Shown here piece after piece: positions 4,016 through 13,334 of a DNA stretch of 32,000 nt. The notes beneath the pieces are model-generated. The model did not search any database and was not told the origin of the DNA. It saw nothing but the letters and a program-made list of their open reading frames with translations. Positions within the stretch are counted from its first letter, which is position 1. Each line of letters starts with the position of its first letter. The DNA comes from Candidatus Baldrarchaeota archaeon (GTDB lineage: Archaea > Asgardarchaeota > Baldrarchaeia > Baldrarchaeales > DXJG01). Where the stretch lies: positions 150,001-182,000 of the forward strand of contig DXJG01000004.1 in the NCBI GenBank assembly GCA_019056805.1. The letters run 5' to 3'. The position numbers and the translations under genes were made by a program.

Positions 4016-4258
4016 TTAGGTGCAAATTAGAGTCTCAGTATACTCTACCTCGGGGATTTTCCTTATCTTAGAAATCAAAGCACCAATTTCCCTAAAGTCG
4101 TTCACTTTAACCTTCACTATAAGATCCCAAGAACCATGAATAATTCTGACATCATCAACTCCCCGTATCCTTTTCAATCTCTCCGCAACTTCATGTTCCG
4201 CACCGATCGTGGTTACTACGAGTATGTAACCCTCTGTCTCAACAACTATTCTTTCCAT
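4016..4258 (-). CDS. Stand-alone Lrp/AsnC ligand-binding (RAM) domain protein
   Basis: GYILV...G.EHEVAERL..I.GV..V.IIHGSWDLIVKV...KIRKIPEV..TETLI pattern with no HTH. Start moved to ATG 4258 after AGGTGAGG; overlaps the upstream gene by 20 nt. Confidence 0.85.
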   Translation of the reverse strand: MERIVVETEGYILVVTTIGAEHEVAERLKRIRGVDDVRIIHGSWDLIVKVKVNDFREIGALISKIRKIPEVEYTETLICT

Positions 4259-4754
4259 TTCCCTCACCTGAATCATTTCTCAGATTAAAATTAGCATTGA
4301 TTGTTCCGCTGTCACCGTTTAGCAGCCCTTTTGCTATAATTTGACCAATATCGGTCAGACGCACATAGGTGCCTTTACTATTTACATTTCCTGCTATAAT
4401 TAGTCCCATGTTTCTGAATTCGCGGAGATTCCATTTCACGGTAGACTCTGACAATTTTAACTTAGAAGAAAGAATACGACCTATCGAAGTCAATGTTAAC
4501 CTTTTTCCATTATCCACGATCTTTGCTAACTCTTTCAAAAGCACTTTTTGTCTTTCATTTAGTCTGGCAGTAGCAAAAGTAAAAACAGATGCTTCCAATC
4601 TCCTTATCTTCTCAATCAAATAACAAAAAACTTCTTCCACAAATTTATTCTTTAAAATTTCTCTATTATTTCGGTAAAAACTTTCTAAGTCATATGTGAA
4701 AGATTTCACCTCCACCTCGTGTTTCACATCCACTCTCCTTGTAAACAGATTCAC
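4239..4754 (-). CDS. Winged helix-turn-helix protein, putative transcriptional regulator (true start uncertain)
   Basis: LSSKLKLSESTVKWNLREFRNMGLI recognition helix followed by a wing and LTDIG. The track GTG start lies inside an SD motif, so the real start may be GTG 4727 or ATG 4761 via a frameshift. Confidence 0.7.
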   Translation of the reverse strand: MNLFTRRVDVKHEVEVKSFTYDLESFYRNNREILKNKFVEEVFCYLIEKIRRLEASVFTFATARLNERQKVLLKELAKIVDNGKRLTLTSIGRILSSKLKLSESTVKWNLREFRNMGLIIAGNVNSKGTYVRLTDIGQIIAKGLLNGDSGTINANFNLRNDSGEGNGKNSC

Positions 4755-4924: not shown

Positions 4925-5839
4925 TTAGATACTTTTGGAGAATACTGCATCATCTGTGTCTTTTCTTTTCAATTTTGATGCAGCTATTTCTCTATATTCA
5001 AATTCAAATCCATTTTTAAGATAAAATAATATTGCAGGAAAATTATTAACATTAGTATCAACTTGAAGTCTAAGAATACCTTTACGCCTTGCATTCTCCT
5101 CCAATTTCTTCAATAAAAGAGTGCCCACATGATGTCCTTGAGCAGAATGAAGTACTGCTAAGAGATATATCCAAGCATTTTTAGGAGCCCATTCCCATGC
5201 AAAAATTCCACCCACAATTCTACCGTTTTTATCTAAAGCTATAAGATTTAATTCTGGATTATCTCTCGAAATTTCCTCAATAAGCTCAGCATCTTCAAAA
5301 GGATCTTCCCCAGGAAACGCATCTCTAGATAATTCCAAAATTTTACCGTAATCTTCGCTTCTATAAGGTCTTATGTGAAACCCTAGTGGCTCAAATACAT
5401 GCTTTGGAATTTTAGGTATATCTGGAGTCCATTTACACATAGAGATGGCATCAATAAGCTTTCCATCGACATTAAGCATAGACTTTCTTAGTCTACCCTC
5501 ATACTCAAAACCAAGTTTAGTGAGAGACATTTGTAAATCAATTCTATTAGCAGGTATAAAAGTCCTAACTTTAGTTGACCCTGTTTCGAAAGCATTATCT
5601 AACAAATATTTTGCTAATTCAACTAAAGTATCCCAGTCTTCAGCATTCATAAAATGAATAAAAGTCTCCTCCTCAAAGCTACAAAGAGCAGAACCCATTA
5701 ACCTTCCATTTTTCTCGACAACAACAATTTTGTTAACCCATTTTGAAAGCCAAGATAGCTCTATGTCCGGCCTATAATTTTTAGCAAAAACTAAAATTTT
5801 GCTTAATTCCTCTTCTTTAGCGATGCGAATCTTTGACAA
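4925..5839 (-). CDS. Tandem two-domain GNAT acetyltransferase
   Basis: N-terminal RimJ-like domain (LGFEYEGRLRK) and C-terminal RimI-like domain (IYLLAV..SAQGHHVG, N.PAILFYLKNGF). TTG start after GGCGGTG. Confidence 0.8.
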   Translation of the reverse strand: MSKIRIAKEEELSKILVFAKNYRPDIELSWLSKWVNKIVVVEKNGRLMGSALCSFEEETFIHFMNAEDWDTLVELAKYLLDNAFETGSTKVRTFIPANRIDLQMSLTKLGFEYEGRLRKSMLNVDGKLIDAISMCKWTPDIPKIPKHVFEPLGFHIRPYRSEDYGKILELSRDAFPGEDPFEDAELIEEISRDNPELNLIALDKNGRIVGGIFAWEWAPKNAWIYLLAVLHSAQGHHVGTLLLKKLEENARRKGILRLQVDTNVNNFPAILFYLKNGFEFEYREIAASKLKRKDTDDAVFSKSI

Positions 5840-6052
5840 CGAAATCGCACCGCCCGAAATGAAGTTCTCTTAAATCCAACAAATTTAAACAAAATAACTT
5901 AGTATTCAACCTTTAATTCACCGATTTCTAGTATTCACCATTTGTAGTATGAAAATACGCTATTGGTAATATTAAAATATCGCTTGGACGAACAAATTAA
6001 AACAAAGTTTTATTGTTTTTCAATAATTAAGTCAAAGATTGGAGGATTTGTT

Positions 6053-7522
6053 GTGTCTGAAATATTTTCAAATGATAGACCGGTTTTAGAACTGCTTTCT
6101 AGAGAAGAAATAGAGACCATACATGTCTCATCACTCAGAATTTTAGAAGATGTAGGTATAATGGTGGACAATAAAAATGCGCTTAAACTTTTTACTGAGC
6201 TAGGTGCCGACATAGACATAAATAAGAAAATTGTCCATGTCCCAGAATATTTGGTGAAAGAAGCTCTAAAGAGAGCTCCTTCTTCAATTAAAATGTATAG
6301 TAGAAATAGAAAATTTGACATGCTTCTAACCAGGAACAAGGTGTATTACAATCCGGGTTCCGCGGCTCTCTATATGCTTGATAGAGAAACTGGAGAGAGA
6401 AGAAAACCTTTATCCAAAGATTTCAGAGAATTTGTAAAACTCGTTGATGCAATGGAGAATATTCATGCTCAAAGTACGGCCATGGTTGTTTCAGATGTAC
6501 CAGAAATAGTTGCAGACAGATATAGACTCTACATAGTATTGAAAAACTCCACAAAAACCATAGTCACCGGAGCATTCACCATAGAAGGAATATACGATAT
6601 GAAAAAAATGCTAGAAGTAGTTGTCGGTGGAGAAAAAGAACTGAGAAAGAAACCACTGGCCATATTTGATGTTTGCCCATCTCCACCATTAAAATGGAGC
6701 GAAATAACATCACAAAACCTAATCGACTGCGCAAAATTTGAAATTCCAGCAGAAATAATACCAATGCCACAAGTTGGAGCCACAGGTCCAGCTACCCTAG
6801 CTGGATCTTTAGTACAATTTAACGCAGAATTCCTCTGTGGACTAGTTATGTCACAAATGACAAAACCAGGCGCACCCATAATTTACGGTGGATCACCGGC
6901 AATCGTAGATATGAGAACTGGAACAGGACGTCTAGCAGCCATAGAAGCTATCATGCTGTGCTGCGCCTATGCCCAAATAGGAAAATACTATAATTTACCA
7001 ACACATGCCTACTTAGGGCTCAGCGACGCAAAAATTATAGATGCACAAGCAGGCATGGAAGCGGCTCTAGGTCTAGTTCTAGGCGCATTAGCTGGCATAA
7101 ACAATATTGCTGGACCAGGAATGCTAAGTTTCGAAAACTGTCAAAGCTTCGAAAAACTTGTAATAGACAACGAAATCTGCGGTTATGCTCTAAGGCTTAT
7201 TAGAGGTATCCAAGTAAATGAAGAAACTTTAGCTTTAGATGTTATAGAAAAGGTTGGTCCGGGAGGACATTTCTTGGCACAAAAACACACGAATAAATGG
7301 TTTAGGATAGAGGAATACATGCCTTCAAACGTTATAGATACACGTAGTGAAAGAGACTGGCTTGAAAGAGGGAGAAAAGACATAGTACAAAGAGCTAAGG
7401 AAAGAGTAGATGAAATTCTTAAAGAGCATGAACCAGAACCTCTACCACCAGATGTAGAAAAAGAGCTAGACAATGTGGCCATGGAGTTCATGAAAAAACA
7501 CGGTGTAACCAAACTACCTTAA
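6053..7522 (+). CDS. mttB: Trimethylamine methyltransferase (MttB) superfamily protein, non-pyrrolysine type
   Basis: IH..SL.ILE.VG, GPATLAGSLVQ.NAE.L.G, PG.PIIYG, D.RTG, SDAK..DAQAG.E, GPGGHFL. No internal TAG; the residue before SDAK is Leu (CTC 7019-7021). GTG 6053 follows GGAGG. Confidence 0.92.
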   Translation: MSEIFSNDRPVLELLSREEIETIHVSSLRILEDVGIMVDNKNALKLFTELGADIDINKKIVHVPEYLVKEALKRAPSSIKMYSRNRKFDMLLTRNKVYYNPGSAALYMLDRETGERRKPLSKDFREFVKLVDAMENIHAQSTAMVVSDVPEIVADRYRLYIVLKNSTKTIVTGAFTIEGIYDMKKMLEVVVGGEKELRKKPLAIFDVCPSPPLKWSEITSQNLIDCAKFEIPAEIIPMPQVGATGPATLAGSLVQFNAEFLCGLVMSQMTKPGAPIIYGGSPAIVDMRTGTGRLAAIEAIMLCCAYAQIGKYYNLPTHAYLGLSDAKIIDAQAGMEAALGLVLGALAGINNIAGPGMLSFENCQSFEKLVIDNEICGYALRLIRGIQVNEETLALDVIEKVGPGGHFLAQKHTNKWFRIEEYMPSNVIDTRSERDWLERGRKDIVQRAKERVDEILKEHEPEPLPPDVEKELDNVAMEFMKKHGVTKLP

Positions 7523-7611
7523 ACCTCAAGTCAAAACTATGTATTTATAAGATTAACTTAATCATTTCGCCTTCTTTTTGCTTTTAATTAAAATAGGAGT
7601 GATTAGAAGTG

Positions 7612-8532
7612 TTAAAATATTTTGTAGAGTGGATGGCTTTTCACTTTTGGTCTAATTCCGTGTCTCATAGCTCTATATGCTATTATTGCATCAGTCATTG
7701 CGCATGCTGGAAAAGCAACCTCCGCGTATTTGATCGGTCCATAAAATATGAAGTCTGCACCTCCCATTTGCACCGTAATTAATGAACCAGCTGCACAAGC
7801 CTTTTTCGCAATTTTCCCATAGTCATTCGCCCTTTTCCACTCTAAAACCGCGTTGAGAGGAGCAGCTCCAGAAGGTAAACCAAAAGTGTTCTTAACTAAT
7901 TTAATAGCTTCCACCGTCAATCCGATGCTTGGTACATCTAAAACACTCACATCTATCAAAGGCTTCCTAATATTTGCCTCCTTCAATGCTCTATCCAAAA
8001 GTCCCTTTTCTTCTCCGTCTCCTTTCAGAAGCTTAATTCTTCCCTCTGGCCAAACATTTCTAGGATTATGTGCCAATATTATTGCTGCTTCTAATCCGCT
8101 TTCCTTAATAACTGTCAATTCCTCTTCTTTAACATAGACAGATATAGAATTATAAACTGTTTTCCCAAGTAGACCTGTCTCAGTTACGTATTTTAAAGCA
8201 GCTATCTTTACCTGCATAGTTGCGCTATCAATGAGAAATGGAGCATCAGTAACGTCGGCTACAAAATCTATGTATTTAATTATGGCCTTCTCGGATAATC
8301 CTACAATATCTGTCATGTGAGGATTTCCTGTAAGGTCAGATAGTTCTTCTTGCTTTTTAATCAATTCTTCAGCTTTCTCTTTATTAAAATCTCCTTTCAT
8401 CGGGTCCTTCACAATTTTATGTCCCTCATAAAATATAGTGCCTATAAGCACCGTTGGTAGTTCCCCGGGTTGTCCGCCGACCTTAACATTACCTATGGCA
8501 AATATTTCTTGATCCTTTCCAAATTTATTCAT
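7612..8532 (-). CDS. mtrH: Stand-alone MtrH/MtgA-family pterin:corrinoid methyltransferase
   Basis: N-terminal KF.KDQEIF.IG.VKVGGQPGELPTVLIGTIFY.GHKIV, PFLIDS, YNSI and GADFIFYGPI. GGAGG SD. No other mtr genes in the window. Confidence 0.92.
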   Translation of the reverse strand: MNKFGKDQEIFAIGNVKVGGQPGELPTVLIGTIFYEGHKIVKDPMKGDFNKEKAEELIKKQEELSDLTGNPHMTDIVGLSEKAIIKYIDFVADVTDAPFLIDSATMQVKIAALKYVTETGLLGKTVYNSISVYVKEEELTVIKESGLEAAIILAHNPRNVWPEGRIKLLKGDGEEKGLLDRALKEANIRKPLIDVSVLDVPSIGLTVEAIKLVKNTFGLPSGAAPLNAVLEWKRANDYGKIAKKACAAGSLITVQMGGADFIFYGPIKYAEVAFPACAMTDAIIAYRAMRHGIRPKVKSHPLYKIF

Positions 8533-8740
8533 AATTTTTCCTCCAAATTCATATCATAAATAATGTTTAAGAAATTGGTGAACTGCGTTATTCCATACAC
8601 TTTTATACATCTCTTTATATGCAAGAAATGATTCATTGAAACTATGTAATATAATAATAGATATAATATCTTAAAATAATGAAAGGTGATGGCACATATT
8701 ATCGTATGGTGTTCTCTAAAGGTCGTGGAGGGAATTGATT

Positions 8741-9403
8741 TTGAGTGGAGATGTAAAAGAAATTCTAAAAAAAGTACGAGACGCTATACTTGAATACAAC
8801 CCTGATAAAACAGTTGAGGCAGTGAACGAAGCCTTAAAAGTGGGTTTAAGTCCGATGAAAATCATGGAGAAGGGGGTAACCCAAGCACTTAAAGAAATAG
8901 GAAAAATGTTCGAAGAAGGAAAAGTATTCCTACCGGAACTCATAATGGCGGGAGAAGCAGGAAAAGCCGCACTAAAAATATTAGAACCAAAAATAAAAGA
9001 AAGAAAAGAAAAAATAAAAAGCTACGGCAAAGTTCTACTGGCGACAGTTGAAGGAGATATACACGACATCGGTAAAAGCTTAGTTGGAGCAGTTCTAATG
9101 GCAAATGGATTTGAAGTAATAGACCTCGGTGCGGATGTACCAACTGATAAATTAATTGAAAAAGTTAAAGAACTTAAGCCAGATGTCGTAGGTCTCTCAG
9201 CACTCATGACAACAACAATGTTAAACCAGGAAAAAGTTATTAAAAAGCTAGAAGAAACAGGACTTAGAGGAACAGTTAAAGTAATTGTTGGAGGAGCCCC
9301 TGTGACCGAAGAATGGGCAAAAAGAATAGGGGCTGATGCATATGGTGCCGACGCCATGGATGCTGTTAAAAAAATAAAAGAACTACTCAATATCAAAGAA
9401 TAG
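8741..9403 (+). CDS. mttC: Methyltransferase cognate corrinoid (B12-binding) protein, MttC/MtgC/MtbC family
   Basis: Cap domain (GKMFEEGKVFLPELIMA), cobalamin motif EGDIHDIGK (DxHxxG), GLSALMTTT and VGGAP. TTG 8741 has better spacing from GGAGGG than TTG 8735. Confidence 0.93.
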   Translation: MSGDVKEILKKVRDAILEYNPDKTVEAVNEALKVGLSPMKIMEKGVTQALKEIGKMFEEGKVFLPELIMAGEAGKAALKILEPKIKERKEKIKSYGKVLLATVEGDIHDIGKSLVGAVLMANGFEVIDLGADVPTDKLIEKVKELKPDVVGLSALMTTTMLNQEKVIKKLEETGLRGTVKVIVGGAPVTEEWAKRIGADAYGADAMDAVKKIKELLNIKE

Positions 9404-9639
9404 AATCAAAAGAGAAAGCTCATTTTTCACTGTTGTTTTCGTTTAGTTTTTATAAATAAAAAAGTTCTCAACAATCTCCGTGTAATCACATAAACTAGCA
9501 CCACTAAAAGAAGGAGAAAAGAAGTTCTCATTAGTATATTTTATTATTTTAACGTTAATTATATTTGTGAAGTCCTTTACTACAAAAAATTTAAGTTAAA
9601 ATTCTGTTTCTTACTGTTAATGCTCAGGTAGTGTTTAAT

Positions 9640-10494
9640 ATGTCAGAACATTCTTCTGAAAAAACATCGTTTAAAGCCTTAACTCGCAAATATGCCTTAA
9701 AAGGGGAAAAAGCCCGCATTTACGGCCCCATTGATCATAAAGGATATTCATATTGGGCAATTTACTATGAAATGAAAAAATTGTTTAAAAAACCAGTGGG
9801 AACATGCATTATCGTCGTTGATACAAATCAAAGAATTATAACTGACAAAGATATTTTCAGAGCAGTTTCACAAACAATCTTGCTACCTCGTCCAACCAAC
9901 TATTTTCAAAAAATCTACGAGGAGGAAATGAAGGAATTCTCCAATATTCATGATTTTTTTTCACGATCAGAGAAATATGTTTTACAATCAGATATTTCAA
10001 CACTTCTAGAAGAAGCTAAGGAACTGGACTTTCCAGAAATTTCTGAAGCTTTAGAGAACATTATAAAGCAATCTGAAAGAATAGCTGAAATAACTGGCAA
10101 AATATTGGAGAAGAAAGAAAAAATGAAAGACTTAATAAAATTTTTGCAAGAAAAGATTGATCAAGAACGTGCTAACGTATTTCTCAAAGTGGTGGTAAAT
10201 GAAGAAGGAAACCTAATTAAAGATTTATTAGAAGCTTTTCATGAAAGGAAAAAATTACTGCAAGATCTCGAAGATGCTATCATGACAAGGAAAAATATCG
10301 AATCGTTACCTAAAGACTTTGATTTATTATTAAAAGACACTAAATTTGAAATCAAAGCTCTAAGCAACATTGACACGGTTTTTAATAATCTTATAAAGAT
10401 GCGAAAAGATATCCAAGAATTATATGATCGATGCCAGGGTACTATTGAAGAATTTTATGAAAAAATGCTGAAAAGAATAAAAACAATAATTTAG
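9640..10494 (+). CDS. Hypothetical protein with an N-terminal alpha/beta domain and a long helical/coiled-coil C-terminus
   Basis: 284-codon ORF with normal composition and no recognised motif; E/K/L-rich helical C-terminal two thirds. Start GTG 9631 or ATG 9640. Confidence 0.75.
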   Translation: MSEHSSEKTSFKALTRKYALKGEKARIYGPIDHKGYSYWAIYYEMKKLFKKPVGTCIIVVDTNQRIITDKDIFRAVSQTILLPRPTNYFQKIYEEEMKEFSNIHDFFSRSEKYVLQSDISTLLEEAKELDFPEISEALENIIKQSERIAEITGKILEKKEKMKDLIKFLQEKIDQERANVFLKVVVNEEGNLIKDLLEAFHERKKLLQDLEDAIMTRKNIESLPKDFDLLLKDTKFEIKALSNIDTVFNNLIKMRKDIQELYDRCQGTIEEFYEKMLKRIKTII

Positions 10495-10601
10495 ATCGCA
10501 AGAAAAGAACTTTAAAACATGAACAAAAAGTCTTTCGCATTTTGTTAAATTTACAACTTATTTTTAATTAATTTTATATGTCTCTATCTTTTAAAATAGG
10601 A

Positions 10602-11504
10602 ATGGTGGAAGACGTGGAGGAAGTCGTTATTAGAGAACTAAAAAATATAGAAGAGTTTGCTAGATGTGAAGAGATTCAAAGACAAGCATGGGGCATGAAA
10701 GATATAGAAATAGTTCCCCTTCATCTCCTAGTTACAGTTCCAAAAGCCGGAGGAATCGTGCTTGGTGCATTTAACAAAAAAGAGGGGTCCCTTATCGGGT
10801 TTTGCTTTGGCTTCATCGGACATGACGGTAAAAGATTTTATCTCCATTCTCATATGAATGCTGTTATACCAGAGAAACAGAACAAGGGCGTAGGACGCCT
10901 CTTAAAATTGAAACAGAGGGAATGCGCATTACAAAGAGGATTTAACCTGATAAAATGGACTTTTGACCCTCTAGAAGGACTAAATGCAAATTTAAACTTT
11001 AGAAAATTAGGAGTCATAAGCAGGACATACATTCGAAATTGTTATGGAGAGATGAGAGACGAACTTAATATAGGCTTAGAAACAGACAGACTTTTAGTTG
11101 AATGGTGGATAAAATCAAAACACGTTGAAGAACGAATAAAAGGAAACTTCCCAAGCTATTCTATAGAAGAACTTTTATCAGAAAATGCAAGTATAGCCAA
11201 TGAAACAATACCTATAAAACCGAACTTTAGAAAAATTACAAAAATAAACACAGATTTAACTTCAGAAACAGTATTAATTGAAATTCCTGAAAGCATTCAA
11301 AAAATAAAAACTATGAATATGAAGTTAGCAAGGGACTGGAGATTGAAAACAAGAGAACTATTTGAAGCCTATTTCAGAAAAGGTTATGTTGCAATAGATT
11401 TTTTGTCTGAGAAAATAGACGGTCAAAGAAGAAACTTCTACATACTAAGCAAAAAACCAGTCTGGAAAACGAAAATTTCCCATAATTTTATTGAAAGAAA
11501 TTGA
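10602..11504 (+). CDS. GNAT-family acyltransferase (COG3375 type; probable D-amino-acid N-succinyl/acyltransferase)
   Basis: IQRQAWG, GG.VLGAF, YLHSHM.AV.P..Q.KGVG..LK..QR, WTFDPL...NA.LNF.KLG, NCYG.M.D.LN.G..TDRLLVEW. Start uncertain (10578/10602/10614). Confidence 0.85.
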   Translation: MVEDVEEVVIRELKNIEEFARCEEIQRQAWGMKDIEIVPLHLLVTVPKAGGIVLGAFNKKEGSLIGFCFGFIGHDGKRFYLHSHMNAVIPEKQNKGVGRLLKLKQRECALQRGFNLIKWTFDPLEGLNANLNFRKLGVISRTYIRNCYGEMRDELNIGLETDRLLVEWWIKSKHVEERIKGNFPSYSIEELLSENASIANETIPIKPNFRKITKINTDLTSETVLIEIPESIQKIKTMNMKLARDWRLKTRELFEAYFRKGYVAIDFLSEKIDGQRRNFYILSKKPVWKTKISHNFIERN

Positions 11505-11519
11505 TGGAGATAGTAACCT

Positions 11520-12638
11520 ATGTTTATTGAAGAAGTAGAGTTGAGACTAATTAATATGAAACTTGTATCGCCGTTTGAGACAAGTTTTGGACGTGAAACA
11601 GAAAGAAAAACAATTATCGTAAAAATAGTAAGCGAAGAGCTTGAAGGTTACGGTGAATGTGTAGCTATGGATGGTCCATGGTATTCTTATGAAACCATTG
11701 AAACAGCTTGGATCATTCTACAAAAATTTATGATTCCCATGATACTAGGTAAAGAAATTAGTCAGCCAAGTGAATTGATGAAACTTTTAGGTAGAGTACG
11801 TGGTCACAATATGGCTCGTGCATCTCTTGAAGAAGCTTTCTGGGACCTATATGCAAAGTCTCTAGGAAAATCATTATCAAAATTGCTGGGAGGAGTAAAA
11901 GATAAAATTGAAAGCGGTGTAAGCATCGGAATACAGAAAGACATTCAACAATTACTAAAGGTGATTGGTAGTTATTTATCCGAGGGATATAGGAGAATTA
12001 AGCTGAAAATTAAACCTTCTTGGGACATCGAGGTTCTTCGAGAAGTTAGAAAACACTACTCAGATATACCTTTAATGGTTGATGCTAACGCAGCATATAC
12101 AATAAATGATGCACATCACATTAAGAAGCTAGATGAGTTTAATTTACTTATGATTGAACAACCTCTAAGTTACGATGACCTTGTTGACCATGCAAAACTG
12201 CAAAGCACATTAAAAACACCAATCTGCCTCGATGAAAGCATTAAAACAGTCAGTGATGCACGAGCTGCACTTAAACTTGGAAGCTGCAAAATAATTAATA
12301 TCAAAGTCGGTAGAGTTGGCGGTCTACTCAATGCAAAAGAAATTCATGATTTATGTCAAGAAAATAATATTCCAGTTTGGTGCGGTGGCATGCTTGAAAC
12401 AGGTATAGGTAGAGCTATAAACATTGCAATAGCAAGTCTTCCAAACTTTAAATTACCAAATGACATATCTGCAAGCAAAAGATATTATCATGAAGATATA
12501 ATCGACCCTCCATTTGAATTAAACCCAGATGGAACAATCACCGTACCTAAAAAGCCAGGCATAGGTGTCGAGGTTGTTGAAGAAAGATTAAACAAAAGAA
12601 CAATAAAGAAAATTACACTAAAACATAAAAATGGCTGA
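11520..12638 (+). CDS. menC: o-Succinylbenzoate synthase / N-acylamino acid racemase (enolase superfamily, NSAR/OSBS subfamily)
   Basis: PFETSFG, KLK catalytic motif, metal ligands DAN/EQP/DES, NIKVGRVGG, CGGMLETGIGRA and DISAS. Context favours racemase over menaquinone function. Confidence 0.9.
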   Translation: MFIEEVELRLINMKLVSPFETSFGRETERKTIIVKIVSEELEGYGECVAMDGPWYSYETIETAWIILQKFMIPMILGKEISQPSELMKLLGRVRGHNMARASLEEAFWDLYAKSLGKSLSKLLGGVKDKIESGVSIGIQKDIQQLLKVIGSYLSEGYRRIKLKIKPSWDIEVLREVRKHYSDIPLMVDANAAYTINDAHHIKKLDEFNLLMIEQPLSYDDLVDHAKLQSTLKTPICLDESIKTVSDARAALKLGSCKIINIKVGRVGGLLNAKEIHDLCQENNIPVWCGGMLETGIGRAINIAIASLPNFKLPNDISASKRYYHEDIIDPPFELNPDGTITVPKKPGIGVEVVEERLNKRTIKKITLKHKNG

Positions 12639-12671
12639 GCAAAAGTTAATACTGTTGATTTAAGGTTTCAA

Positions 12672-13334
12672 ATGGTGAGAAAAATTACAGCCTGGGAAAA
12701 AATATATGGTGAAAGAGGAAAAGTTTTTGAAGAAGTTGATGAAAGGGTAAAAAAGTTCACAAACAGTTTTATGACATGGAAATGCTGTAGAGTTTTAGAT
12801 ATTGGTTGTGGAAACGGTAGGCATTGCATATATCTTGCTAAAGAAGGCCATCATGTTATCGGTTTAGATGTTTCCGCCCATGGTTTAAAAATAGCTAAAA
12901 AATGGATGCTTGAAGAAAAGTTAATTGTGCATTTGGTGCTGGGAGATATGGCATTTCAGCCATTCAAGAACCTTTCTTTTGATTTTCTTATTTGTATGTA
13001 CACCATCTATCATGCTCCAATAAAGAAAATAATGAAAACCATTAATGAGAACTATCGCATTTTGAAAGAAAATGGAGTAGGTTTGTTTACACTTTTATCA
13101 ACAAATGATCAACATTACGGTAAGGGCAAGGAAATTGAGAAGAACACTTTTCTGCAACCTGAACGAGTACTAGGAACGGAGACGCAACATTTCCAATATC
13201 ATCACTATTTTAACGAAGAAGAAACTAGGCAAGTATTTTCAAAATTTGAAATAATACGCTTAAAGGAATTTAAAATAATGGAGAAAAACACTCTACGTTT
13301 TTATTGGGAAATAATCATTAAACAAAAGAAATAG
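12672..13334 (+). CDS. Class I SAM-dependent methyltransferase
   Basis: Motif I VLDIGCGNGRH, VIGLDVS, GDM...PF....FD and YRILK.NG. Confidence 0.9.
   Translation: MVRKITAWEKIYGERGKVFEEVDERVKKFTNSFMTWKCCRVLDIGCGNGRHCIYLAKEGHHVIGLDVSAHGLKIAKKWMLEEKLIVHLVLGDMAFQPFKNLSFDFLICMYTIYHAPIKKIMKTINENYRILKENGVGLFTLLSTNDQHYGKGKEIEKNTFLQPERVLGTETQHFQYHHYFNEEETRQVFSKFEIIRLKEFKIMEKNTLRFYWEIIIKQKK

What the first reader, a model, noticed from the sequence alone, without database searches (positions are those of the whole stretch)
6053..9403. Pyrrolysine-free MttB + stand-alone MtrH + corrinoid protein: a complete three-component demethylation module without methanogenesis genes
Seen: MttB has Leu (CTC 7019-7021) immediately before SDAK, where Methanosarcina MttB has pyrrolysine, and no in-frame TAG. 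MtrH occurs without mtrA-G. The corrinoid protein has an intact DxHxxG. Known: this MT1/corrinoid/MT2 set parallels MtgB/MtgC/MtgA of Desulfitobacterium (glycine betaine to methyl-THF), and non-Pyl MttB proteins demethylate quaternary amines (glycine betaine, proline betaine, carnitine, choline derivatives). Inference: this archaeon feeds methyl groups from a quaternary amine into a pterin C1 pool (non-methanogenic methylotrophy or methyl-group acetogenesis). The substrate and carrier (H4MPT or H4F) are unknown. No RamA/RACE activator is in the window.
Basis: partly seen in the sequence, partly recalled or inferred. Interest (0 to 1): 0.65.

Follow-up and report, generated by a model that had tools for sequence, protein, structure and literature searches.

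The report
Pyrrolysine-free B12 methyl-transfer module, Asgard archaeon
A non-methanogenic Asgard (Baldrarchaeia) archaeon has three adjacent genes for a vitamin-B12-dependent system that takes a methyl group from an unknown small methylated compound and passes it to its one-carbon carrier; similar gene sets are already published for other Asgard archaea, and its binding-pocket residues argue against glycine betaine as the substrate.

Summary
Window 6053-9403 encodes a pyrrolysine-free MttB-family methyltransferase (Leu323, CTC 7019-7021, at the pyrrolysine position), a stand-alone MtrH and an MtmC-type corrinoid protein with DxHxxG. The 91%-complete genome has no McrA, MtrA, PylS or RamA.

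- **Carrier:** probably H4MPT. Ftr, Mch, Mtd, Mer and CdhD/E are present, and FolD and formyl-THF synthetase were not found.
- **Substrate:** the quaternary-amine inference is weakened. None of the four glycine-betaine-binding residues of MtgB is kept. The arginine conserved in all characterised quaternary-amine enzymes is His here.
- **Subfamily:** the protein belongs to a large uncharacterised subfamily with a conserved pocket signature (Ser103, His318, Leu/Met323, Glu361). It occurs in Asgard archaea, Bathyarchaeia and five bacterial phyla.
- **Partners elsewhere:** in the relatives' loci examined, the gene beside it is more often a homocysteine methyltransferase (7 loci) than MtrH (2 loci plus a contig-end fragment).
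- **Possible second role:** this is the genome's only small corrinoid protein. It may therefore also serve the separate metF-core metE-mtrH2 methionine operon.

MttB-like + corrinoid protein + MtrH clusters in Asgard archaea were published in 2024, and this scan has found similar clusters before on other DNA. Verdict: a new member of a known kind, with substrate unknown.

The parts
6053..7522 (+). MttB-superfamily methyltransferase (MT1), 489 aa, pyrrolysine-free. Pocket residues: Ser103 (6359-6361), His318 (7004-7006), Leu323 (7019-7021), Ala353 (7109-7111), Glu361 (7133-7135).
   Evidence: PF06253 at 351 bits. TIGR02369 at 465 bits, below the 525 cut-off. PDB MtgB E=6e-81, MttB E=1e-78. Codons. 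Only copy in the genome.
7612..8532 (-). Stand-alone MtrH-type methylcorrinoid:pterin methyltransferase (MT2), 306 aa, convergent with MttB.
   Evidence: PF02007 at 322 bits. TIGR01114 310 > 271 and NF002142 322 > 287. Best PDB match is D. hafniense MtgA, E=3e-76. Pterin-ring residues T32, D75, D102, N128, D194, N227 are kept. No MtrA in the genome.
8735..9403 (+). MtmC/MttC/MtgC-type corrinoid protein, 222 aa, His-on motif DIHDIG at 9056-9073. It is the only small corrinoid protein found in the genome.
   Evidence: PF02607 + PF02310. TIGR02370 240.7 > 215.3. The genome search for PF02310 gave this plus three hits inside 433-547-aa frames.
5840..6052 (.). Divergent intergenic region between the GNAT gene and mttB, with GGAGG 8 nt before the GTG start.
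   Evidence: Sequence. It shares no motif beyond chance with the mtrH/corrinoid intergenic region.
8533..8734 (.). Divergent intergenic region between mtrH and the corrinoid-protein gene.
   Evidence: Sequence. No shared 9-mer with 5840-6052; 8-mers are fewer than in shuffles.
4925..5839 (-). 304-aa protein with a C-terminal GNAT domain, divergent from mttB. It is a syntenic neighbour in another Baldrarchaeota MAG; a functional link is not shown.
   Evidence: PF00583. L016 keeps AOR-DUF6125-wHTH-GNAT-MttB at 69-92% identity.

Best explanation
The three genes form a corrinoid-dependent methyl-transfer relay in a non-methanogenic Baldrarchaeia (Asgard) archaeon. The MttB-family enzyme methylates the Co(I) form of the adjacent corrinoid protein using a small methylated compound. 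That compound is probably a cationic methylated amine, but it is not glycine betaine and probably not any of the known carboxylate-bearing quaternary amines. The stand-alone MtrH then exchanges the methyl group between the methyl-Co(III) protein and tetrahydromethanopterin. From methyl-H4MPT the group can enter acetyl-CoA synthesis through CODH/ACS or be oxidised through Mer, Mtd, Mch and Ftr. This is the genome's only small corrinoid protein and its only recognisable substrate methyltransferase, so the same methyl-corrinoid probably also supplies the core MetE methionine synthase encoded 65 kb away with MetF and a second MtrH. Shown: gene identities, catalytic motifs, the pocket substitutions, genome inventory and neighbourhoods. 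Inferred: substrate class, direction of flow, H4MPT as acceptor, and sharing of the corrinoid protein.
For: The three families are identified above curated cut-offs. Leu is at the Pyl position and there is no PylS. The MtrH pterin-ring residues are all kept. MtrH-1 passes the mtrH equivalog cut-off, whereas MtrH-2 and the bathyarchaeial MT2 do not. The H4MPT methyl branch and CdhD/E are present, and FolD and FTHFS were not found. No McrA or MtrA was found. The convergent MttB/MtrH pair recurs in a second Baldrarchaeial lineage at 77% identity, and MttB + RamA + MttB paralogue + corrinoid + MtrH clusters occur in Bathyarchaeia (L028, L037). The pocket signature is kept in 44 of 47 orthologues across Asgard, Bathyarchaeia and bacteria. 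Genome inventory: one MttB, one corrinoid protein, two MtrH, one core MetE, no URO-D-type methyltransferase and no MtaB.
Against: No reductive activase (RamA/RACo or MetH activation domain) was found, although 129 of 151 Asgard genomes at least 90% complete have RamA. The three genes are separate transcription units with no shared promoter motif. No MtrH lies within 8 kb of the MttB orthologue in any of 20 other Asgard loci. The THF-tail residues of MtgA are all replaced, and the basic tail patch of methanogen MtrH matches at only 1 of 3 positions, so acceptor specificity is not shown by sequence. No expression data could be obtained. The genome is 91% complete.
Confidence: 0.55

Rival explanations
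1. The module is mainly anabolic, a corrinoid hub for methionine synthesis. MtrH (either copy) loads the corrinoid protein from methyl-H4MPT, and MttB loads it from an external methyl donor. The core MetE then transfers the methyl group to homocysteine. The pterin link here runs towards the corrinoid, not away from it.
For: Orthologous MttB + corrinoid pairs lie beside a core MetE (L092, L093, L026) or a MetH-type homocysteine methyltransferase plus activation-domain protein (L109-L111, L041). That is 7 loci, against 3 with MtrH including the window. G000's single core MetE is 51% identical to the one beside MttB in L092. It sits in a metF-metE-mtrH2 operon that has no corrinoid gene. The window's corrinoid protein is the only small one in the genome. 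Core MetE enzymes are predicted to use corrinoid proteins as donors (PMC7857596). A methionine synthase fed by an MttB homologue was proposed for bacteria (PMC9324843).
Against: Core MetE could take its methyl group from the CODH/ACS corrinoid iron-sulfur protein (CdhD/E), as predicted for MesB and MesC, so the window's protein is not required. In this genome metE is 65 kb from the module. MtrH-1, not a homocysteine methyltransferase, is the conserved neighbour in two Baldrarchaeial lineages.
Confidence: 0.3
2. One reading: a true MtgB/MtgC/MtgA-type system that demethylates glycine betaine or another known carboxylated quaternary amine (proline betaine, carnitine, gamma-butyrobetaine).
For: The best PDB sequence match is MtgB (276 bits), marginally above MttB (268 bits), and Leu occupies the Pyl position as in MtgB. 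MtrH is most similar to MtgA among solved structures.
Against: None of the four glycine-betaine-binding residues is kept (Y97->S103, R312->H318, H348->gap, F356->E361). R312L abolishes MtgB activity, and R312 is reported as conserved in MtgB, MtcB, MtpB, MthB and MtyB. The protein is about equally distant from MtgB and MttB. MtgA (NF047990) scores 295 bits against a 550 cut-off. No betaine transporter is in the window.
Confidence: 0.07
3. The module is a decaying or poorly functional remnant. Without an activase, oxidised Co(II) corrinoid cannot be rescued, so the system is inactive or only marginally active.
For: RamA and the MetH activation domain were not found in G000. Relatives carry RamA inside clusters that G000 lacks (G005 cluster).
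Against: All three frames are intact with catalytic motifs kept. MttB is 92% and 77% identical to two other Baldrarchaeial copies with the pocket signature retained. The missing 9% of the genome could hold the activase. A cultured Bathyarchaeia enrichment with an active O-demethylase system also lacks a recognisable activase (PMC10989822).
Confidence: 0.05

Closest known systems
MttB-like (non-Pyl) + MtbC-like corrinoid protein + MtrH gene neighbourhoods of Atabeyarchaeia and Freyarchaeia (Valentin-Alvarado et al., Nat Commun 2024, PMC11291895); similar predictions exist for Brockarchaeia, Culexarchaeia and Sifarchaeia
   Same: The same three families lie close together in Asgard archaea that lack Mcr and the full Mtr complex. 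The MttB is pyrrolysine-free and placed in 'a previously uncharacterized group'. The methyl group is proposed to enter the THF or H4MPT branch of the Wood-Ljungdahl pathway.
   Different: The lineage differs (Baldrarchaeia). There is no MtrA-like or MtrAH fusion and no gcvH nearby. New in this report: the pocket signature, the evidence for H4MPT, the single-corrinoid inventory and the link to methionine synthesis.
MtgB / MtgC / MtgA of Desulfitobacterium hafniense (glycine betaine to methyl-THF; PDB 2QNE, 9YCE, 6SJ8)
   Same: MT1 (MttB superfamily, Leu at the Pyl position), an MtmC-type corrinoid protein and an MtrH-fold MT2. The pterin-ring-binding residues of MtgA are all kept.
   Different: None of the four glycine-betaine-binding residues is kept. 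All 5 THF-tail residues that differ between MtgA and this MtrH are replaced, while Tyr35 and His38 are kept. The organism has an H4MPT rather than a THF C1 pathway. No RamA was found. The genes are not co-transcribed.
MttB / MttC of Methanosarcina barkeri (pyrrolysine-dependent trimethylamine methyltransferase; PDB 7XCL)
   Same: The same fold and family (E=1e-78), the SDAK motif after the Pyl position, and a cognate corrinoid protein of the same family.
   Different: Pyl334 is Leu, Tyr364 is Ala and Gly110-Thr111 is Ser-Ala. There is no PylS. The score is below the TIGR02369 cut-off. The methyl acceptor is a pterin, not CoM.
[quoted passage not shown]
   Same: Members of the same orthologous clade (L041, L109-L111) have exactly this cluster. 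The methyl donor is unknown in both cases.
   Different: In this window the adjacent MT2 is MtrH. The homocysteine methyltransferase (a core MetE, not MetH-type) is 65 kb away, and no activation protein was found.

Membership tests
MttB superfamily (PF06253 / COG5598) | Full-length match to the family profile | tested here: met
   351 bits over residues 36-504 of the long frame. E=6e-81 to MtgB and 1e-78 to MttB structures.
Pyrrolysine-dependent trimethylamine methyltransferase MttB (TIGR02369 equivalog) | In-frame UAG/pyrrolysine at position 334, with a Pyl system in the genome | tested here: not met
   CTC (Leu) at 7019-7021, no internal stop. PylS not found; best hit 25.9 bits against a 178 cut-off.
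Pyrrolysine-dependent trimethylamine methyltransferase MttB (TIGR02369 equivalog) | Score above the curated cut-off, and the Pyl-activating residues Tyr364 and Gly110-Thr111 | tested here: not met
   465.5 bits against a 525 cut-off. Unrelated non-Pyl paralogues score 417-504, so the score is not diagnostic. Tyr364 is Ala353 and Gly110-Thr111 is Ser103-Ala104.
MtgB glycine betaine methyltransferase | Glycine-betaine-binding tetrad Y97, F356 (cation-pi) and R312, H348 (carboxylate) | tested here: not met
   S103, E361, H318 and a one-residue gap, read from the HMMER alignment to 9yce/2qne. Residue roles are from PMC13080624.
Characterised quaternary-amine methyltransferases MtcB, MtpB, MtyB, MthB | Arginine equivalent to MtgB R312, reported as conserved in all of them | tested here: not met
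   His318 here. A direct phylogeny with these proteins could not be built, because their sequences were not obtainable with the tools.
MtrH family (PF02007, TIGR01114) | Profile match above cut-off, and pterin-ring-binding Asp/Asn residues | tested here: met
   310 bits against 271. T32, D75, D102, N128, D194 and N227 are kept.
Membrane Mtr complex (MtrA-H) | MtrH encoded with, or accompanied by, MtrA-G | tested here: not met
   No MtrA in the genome. The neighbours are MttB and the corrinoid protein.
MtgA methylcorrinoid:tetrahydrofolate methyltransferase (NF047990 equivalog) | Score above cut-off, and THF-tail residues Y230, R236, F243, F251, W272 | tested here: not met
   295.6 bits against a 550 cut-off. 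The five residues are L230, N236, K243, L251 and V272.
Methyltransferase-cognate corrinoid proteins (TIGR02370; MtmC/MtbC/MttC/MtgC) | B12-binding_2 cap plus Rossmann B12 domain with DxHxxG | tested here: met
   240.7 bits against 215.3. DIHDIG at 9056-9073.
Complete MT1/CP/MT2/activase system | RamA/RACo-type ATP-dependent reductive activase in the genome | tested here: not met
   No PF14574 candidate in G000 and no PF02965. The genome is 91% complete, so absence is not proven.
H4MPT-dependent Wood-Ljungdahl methyl branch (as sink) | Ftr, Mch, Mtd, Mer and CdhD/E present; THF enzymes absent | tested here: met
   (present). (FTHFS and FolD not found).

The most novel reading that the evidence does not exclude
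The conserved His318/Glu361 pocket with Leu or Met at the pyrrolysine position marks a widespread enzyme subfamily that demethylates a non-carboxylated methylamine. Candidates are trimethylamine or dimethylamine, or a methylated lysine-, arginine- or polyamine-derived amine. The enzyme would hold or protonate the amine with an acid/base pair instead of using pyrrolysine. It would feed that methyl group to methionine synthesis or to H4MPT in Asgard archaea, Bathyarchaeia and several bacterial phyla. Supporting hints are the recurrent neighbours in relatives: DDAH/ADI-like hydrolase, amidohydrolase, M20 peptidase, class-III aminotransferase, saccharopine-dehydrogenase-like and DAO-type oxidoreductases, and amino-acid permease.
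Probability: 0.12. Interest if true: 0.7.

Novelty: new member of a known kind. Interest (0 to 1): 0.35.

Why it matters
Non-pyrrolysine MttB homologues are among the commonest unassigned enzymes in anoxic-sediment archaea, and their substrates decide which methylated compounds are diverted from methanogens. This instance is useful as an unusually minimal case: one MT1, one corrinoid protein, two MtrH, one core MetE and a complete H4MPT Wood-Ljungdahl pathway in a 1.9-Mb genome. Three results narrow the experiments. The pocket signature rules out a glycine-betaine-type site. The subfamily keeps that signature from Asgard archaea to Chloroflexota. Its partners are more often homocysteine methyltransferases than MtrH. 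Together these suggest that part of what is called 'non-methanogenic methylotrophy' in Asgard genomes may be methionine synthesis. The gene set itself is not new.

Tried and rejected
1. **Betaine racemase next door.** The enolase-superfamily gene at 11520-12638 is an N-succinylamino-acid racemase/OSBS type (370 bits to 1sja). It is not the hydroxyproline-betaine epimerase HpbD (about 80 bits to 2pmq/4h2h). Rejected.
2. **Link to the Bathyarchaeia lignin O-demethylase 'MtgB'** (mLife 2023). That MT1 is about 300 aa and unrelated to the MttB family. Rejected.
3. **The two unassigned genes after the corrinoid gene as novel MT1s** (9631-10494 and 10578-11504). They are not paralogues. One is weakly GNAT-like and the other has no family or Atlas hit. 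They follow a 228-nt gap. Rejected.
4. **A shared operator in the two divergent promoters.** Nothing above shuffled expectation.
5. **The high TIGR02369 score as a sign of special closeness to Pyl-MttB.** Unrelated paralogues score as high or higher. Rejected.
6. **RamA missing because of an assembly gap at a syntenic site.** Relatives carry RamA in clusters that G000 lacks altogether, so this is not resolved.
7. **Pterin-tail residues as a test of H4MPT against THF.** Inconclusive.

One Pfam call failed on wrong coordinates. Named sequences of MtcB, MtpB, MtyB and MthB could not be fetched, so no tree with characterised enzymes was built.
Full report
**1. Observation**

The window is G000:C11:150001-182000, in a 1.92-Mb, 18-contig genome that is 91% complete.
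- **MttB-family protein**, 6053-7522 (+). Pfam PF06253 scores 351 bits. The GTG start lies 8 nt after a GGAGG, and close homologues of 489 aa cover it end to end.
- **MtrH**, 7612-8532 (-). PF02007 scores 322 bits. It is also above the curated cut-offs of TIGR01114 and NF002142.
- **Corrinoid protein**, 8735-9403 (+). It has PF02607 + PF02310 and is above the TIGR02370 cut-off, with DIHDIG at 9056-9073.

The codon at 7019-7021 is CTC. In HMMER alignments to solved structures, this Leu323 aligns with pyrrolysine 334 of M. barkeri MttB and with the Leu of D. hafniense MtgB. The frame has no internal stop. The genes are not an operon. mttB and mtrH converge across 89 nt, and mtrH and the corrinoid gene diverge across 202 nt. 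The two promoter regions share nothing above chance.

**2.

The nearest MttB homologues come from 'Candidatus Baldrarchaeota' MAG Yap30.bin4.67 (92% and 77% identity). One of its contigs keeps the upstream synteny AOR-DUF6125-wHTH-GNAT-MttB. This agrees with earlier scan notes that call the genome Baldrarchaeia.

| Searched for | Result |
|---|---|
| McrA, MtrA, PylS, RamA/RACo, MetH activation domain, URO-D-type methyltransferases, MtaB | not found |
| MttB | one copy |
| MtrH | two copies |
| MtmC-type corrinoid protein | one (the other three B12-domain hits lie in 433-547-aa frames) |
| H4MPT methyl branch on contig C6: Ftr, Mch, Mtd, Mer (above equivalog cut-off), CdhD/E | all present |
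| Formyl-THF synthetase, FolD | not found |

The one-carbon carrier is therefore most probably H4MPT. This fits MtrH-1 passing the mtrH equivalog threshold (310 bits). MtrH-2 (230 bits) and a bathyarchaeial MT2 (215 bits) do not pass it.

**3. The substrate pocket**

Picking et al. 2026 defined the glycine-betaine site of MtgB: Y97 and F356 (cation-pi), and R312 and H348 (carboxylate). They report that R312 is conserved in MtgB, MtcB, MtpB, MthB and MtyB. The paper's residue numbers equal the 9yce chain index plus 2; I checked this on all four residues. Mapped through the alignments:

| MtgB / MttB residue | Residue in this protein |
|---|---|
| MtgB Y97 | Ser103 |
| MtgB R312 | His318 |
| MtgB H348 | a one-residue gap |
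| MtgB F356 | Glu361 |
| MttB Tyr364 | Ala353 |
| MttB Gly110-Thr111 | Ser103-Ala104 |

The last two rows are the Pyl-activating residues of MttB. The protein is thus neither an MtgB nor an MttB by its active site. It is about equally distant from both in sequence (276 and 268 bits).

**4. A coherent uncharacterised subfamily**

The signature G102-S103 / H318 / (L,M)323-S-D / (S,A)353-G / F360-E361 is kept in almost all 120 database homologues of at least 58% identity. It is also kept in relatives at 43-49% identity from Chloroflexota, Acidobacteriota, Gemmatimonadota and WOR-3. Neighbouring paralogues (36-40%) and an alphaproteobacterial group (about 30%) differ.

A 55-sequence maximum-likelihood tree recovers one orthologous clade of 47 rows (SH-aLRT 100), and 44 of its rows keep the signature. 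Within it the Baldrarchaeial sequences nest with Bathyarchaeia (support 97) rather than with other Asgard families. This suggests lateral exchange.

MttB-family genes occur in 274 of 400 Asgard genomes searched. The high score to TIGR02369 (465 bits) is not special, since unrelated non-Pyl paralogues score 417-504.

**5. What the subfamily is wired to**

I examined 52 loci: the window, 31 named contigs and 20 Asgard regions fetched with 8-kb flanks.

| Gene near the MttB orthologue | Loci | Which |
|---|---|---|
| Corrinoid protein | 19 | |
| MetH-type homocysteine methyltransferase plus activation-domain protein | 4 | L041, L109-L111 |
| Core MetE | 3 | L026, L092, L093 |
| URO-D/MtaA-like methyltransferase | 6 | Asgard f12 and f17 |
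| MtrH | 3 | window, L028, L037 |
| RamA | 3 | L026, L028, L037 |

None of the 20 other Asgard loci has MtrH within 8 kb. A second Baldrarchaeial lineage (G006:C208, MttB 77% identical) does have a convergent MtrH fragment (77% identity) at the contig end. The MttB/MtrH pairing is therefore conserved within Baldrarchaeia.

Other recurrent neighbours each occur in only 2-5 loci: amidohydrolase, M20 peptidase, class-III aminotransferase, saccharopine-dehydrogenase-like and DAO oxidoreductases, amino-acid permease and a DDAH/ADI-like hydrolase. They hint at modified basic amino acids or their amines, but they are hints only.

**6. The methionine link in this genome**

The second MtrH (42% identical) lies at C11:91180-92103. 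It overlaps the stop of a 304-aa core MetE (Meth_synt_2), which follows an MTHFR-family gene. That operon has no corrinoid gene, and no MetH-type homocysteine methyltransferase exists in the genome. Core MetE enzymes use methylcobalamin in vitro and are predicted to take methyl groups from corrinoid proteins (PMC7857596). The only candidates here are the window's corrinoid protein and the CODH/ACS corrinoid iron-sulfur protein.

G000's core MetE is 51% identical to the one that sits beside MttB and the corrinoid gene in the nearest non-Baldrarchaeial Asgard orthologues. A methionine synthase fed by an MttB homologue was proposed for bacteria in 2022 (PMC9324843).

**7. MtrH acceptor site**

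The residues that bind the pterin ring in MtgA (S32, D75, D102, N129, D194, N227) are T32, D75, D102, N128, D194 and N227 here. The residues that clamp the THF tail in MtgA (Y230, R236, F243, F251, W272) are L, N, K, L and V. Tyr35 and His38 are kept. The basic patch proposed to hold the H4MPT tail in M. mazei MtrH (R239, K242, K243) matches position for position only once, although the stretch is lysine-rich. Sequence alone does not settle the acceptor. The genome's pathway content does most of that work.

**8. Mechanism proposed, with status**

| Step | Status |
|---|---|
| MttB methylates the Co(I) corrinoid protein from an unknown cationic methyl donor | inferred from family and pocket |
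| MtrH-1 exchanges the methyl group with H4MPT | family shown; acceptor and direction inferred |
| Methyl-H4MPT enters CODH/ACS or is oxidised by Mer/Mtd/Mch/Ftr | enzymes shown present; flux inferred |
| The methyl-corrinoid also feeds core MetE | inferred from inventory and from neighbourhoods in relatives |

How Co(II) is reactivated is unexplained. RamA is present in 129 of 151 Asgard genomes at least 90% complete. In the same-order genome G005 it sits in a corrinoid-UROD-MFS-UROD-MtrH-RamA-MtrH cluster that G000 lacks.

**9. Comparison with the literature, and novelty**

Valentin-Alvarado et al. 2024 describe MttB-like (non-Pyl), MtbC-like and MtrH genes in close proximity in Atabeyarchaeia and Freyarchaeia. 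They place the MttB in an uncharacterised group shared with Njord-, Hel- and Odinarchaeia, Brockarchaeia and Thermoproteota. They propose quaternary-amine methyl transfer to THF or H4MPT.

This scan has reported similar clusters several times on other DNA, in Bathyarchaeia, Thermoplasmata, Thor- and Hodarchaeales. The finding is therefore a new member of a known kind.

What this analysis adds:
- Active-site evidence against glycine betaine and the other known carboxylated substrates.
- Delineation of a pocket-conserved subfamily spanning two domains.
- The H4MPT assignment.
- The single-corrinoid-protein inventory that ties the module to methionine synthesis.

**10. Limits**

There are no expression data and no neighbourhoods from the large protein collection. 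No tree with the characterised quaternary-amine enzymes could be built. The genome is 91% complete, so every 'not found' is provisional.

Noticed in passing
L090:529-9510 (G005:C62, same order as the window's genome): A cluster of corrinoid protein, URO-D-type methyltransferase, MFS transporter, second URO-D-type methyltransferase, MtrH, RamA/RACo and a second MtrH. It resembles methoxylated-aromatic O-demethylase (Mto-type) systems. G000 has no URO-D-type methyltransferase and no RamA.
   Followed up: partly
L095-L102, L098, L105 (Asgard families f12 and f4): A 289-336-aa Arf/Roc-like small GTPase is encoded directly beside the MttB orthologue in 8 of 20 Asgard loci. In f12 it forms the conserved array PALP enzyme - corrinoid protein - MttB - GTPase.
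   Followed up: no
L020:694-1767 and L025 (Bathyarchaeia): An arginine-deiminase / dimethylarginine-dimethylaminohydrolase-like gene sits directly upstream of the MttB orthologue. Such an enzyme would release methylamines from methylated arginine, which is a possible hint to the substrate.
   Followed up: no
Tree; L015, L016 (MAG Yap30.bin4.67 = G006): Baldrarchaeial MttB sequences nest within Bathyarchaeia (SH-aLRT 97) rather than with other Asgard families, which suggests lateral transfer. G006 (3.2 Mb, 9% contamination) carries two MttB copies (92% and 77% identical to the window's) and looks like a mix of two Baldrarchaeial populations.
   Followed up: partly
G000:C11:136511-137518 (about 13 kb before the window): A Mer-like luciferase-family paralogue (157 bits to the F420-Mer model, far below the cut-off) exists in addition to the true Mer on contig C6.
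   Followed up: no
window 9631-10494: A 287-aa helix-rich, Lys/Glu-rich protein after the corrinoid gene has no Pfam, NCBIfam or Atlas match.
   Followed up: partly
window 10578-13334: A weakly GNAT-like 308-aa protein, an N-succinylamino-acid racemase/OSBS-type enolase-superfamily enzyme (370 bits to 1sja) and a class I SAM methyltransferase form a separate same-strand array. It is unrelated to betaine metabolism.
   Followed up: partly
window 4016-4754: An 86-aa Lrp/AsnC ligand-binding-domain-only protein overlaps the end of a 171-aa winged-helix regulator (weak TK0271-family match). They lie two genes upstream of mttB, and the winged-helix gene is syntenic in the other Baldrarchaeota MAG.
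   Followed up: no
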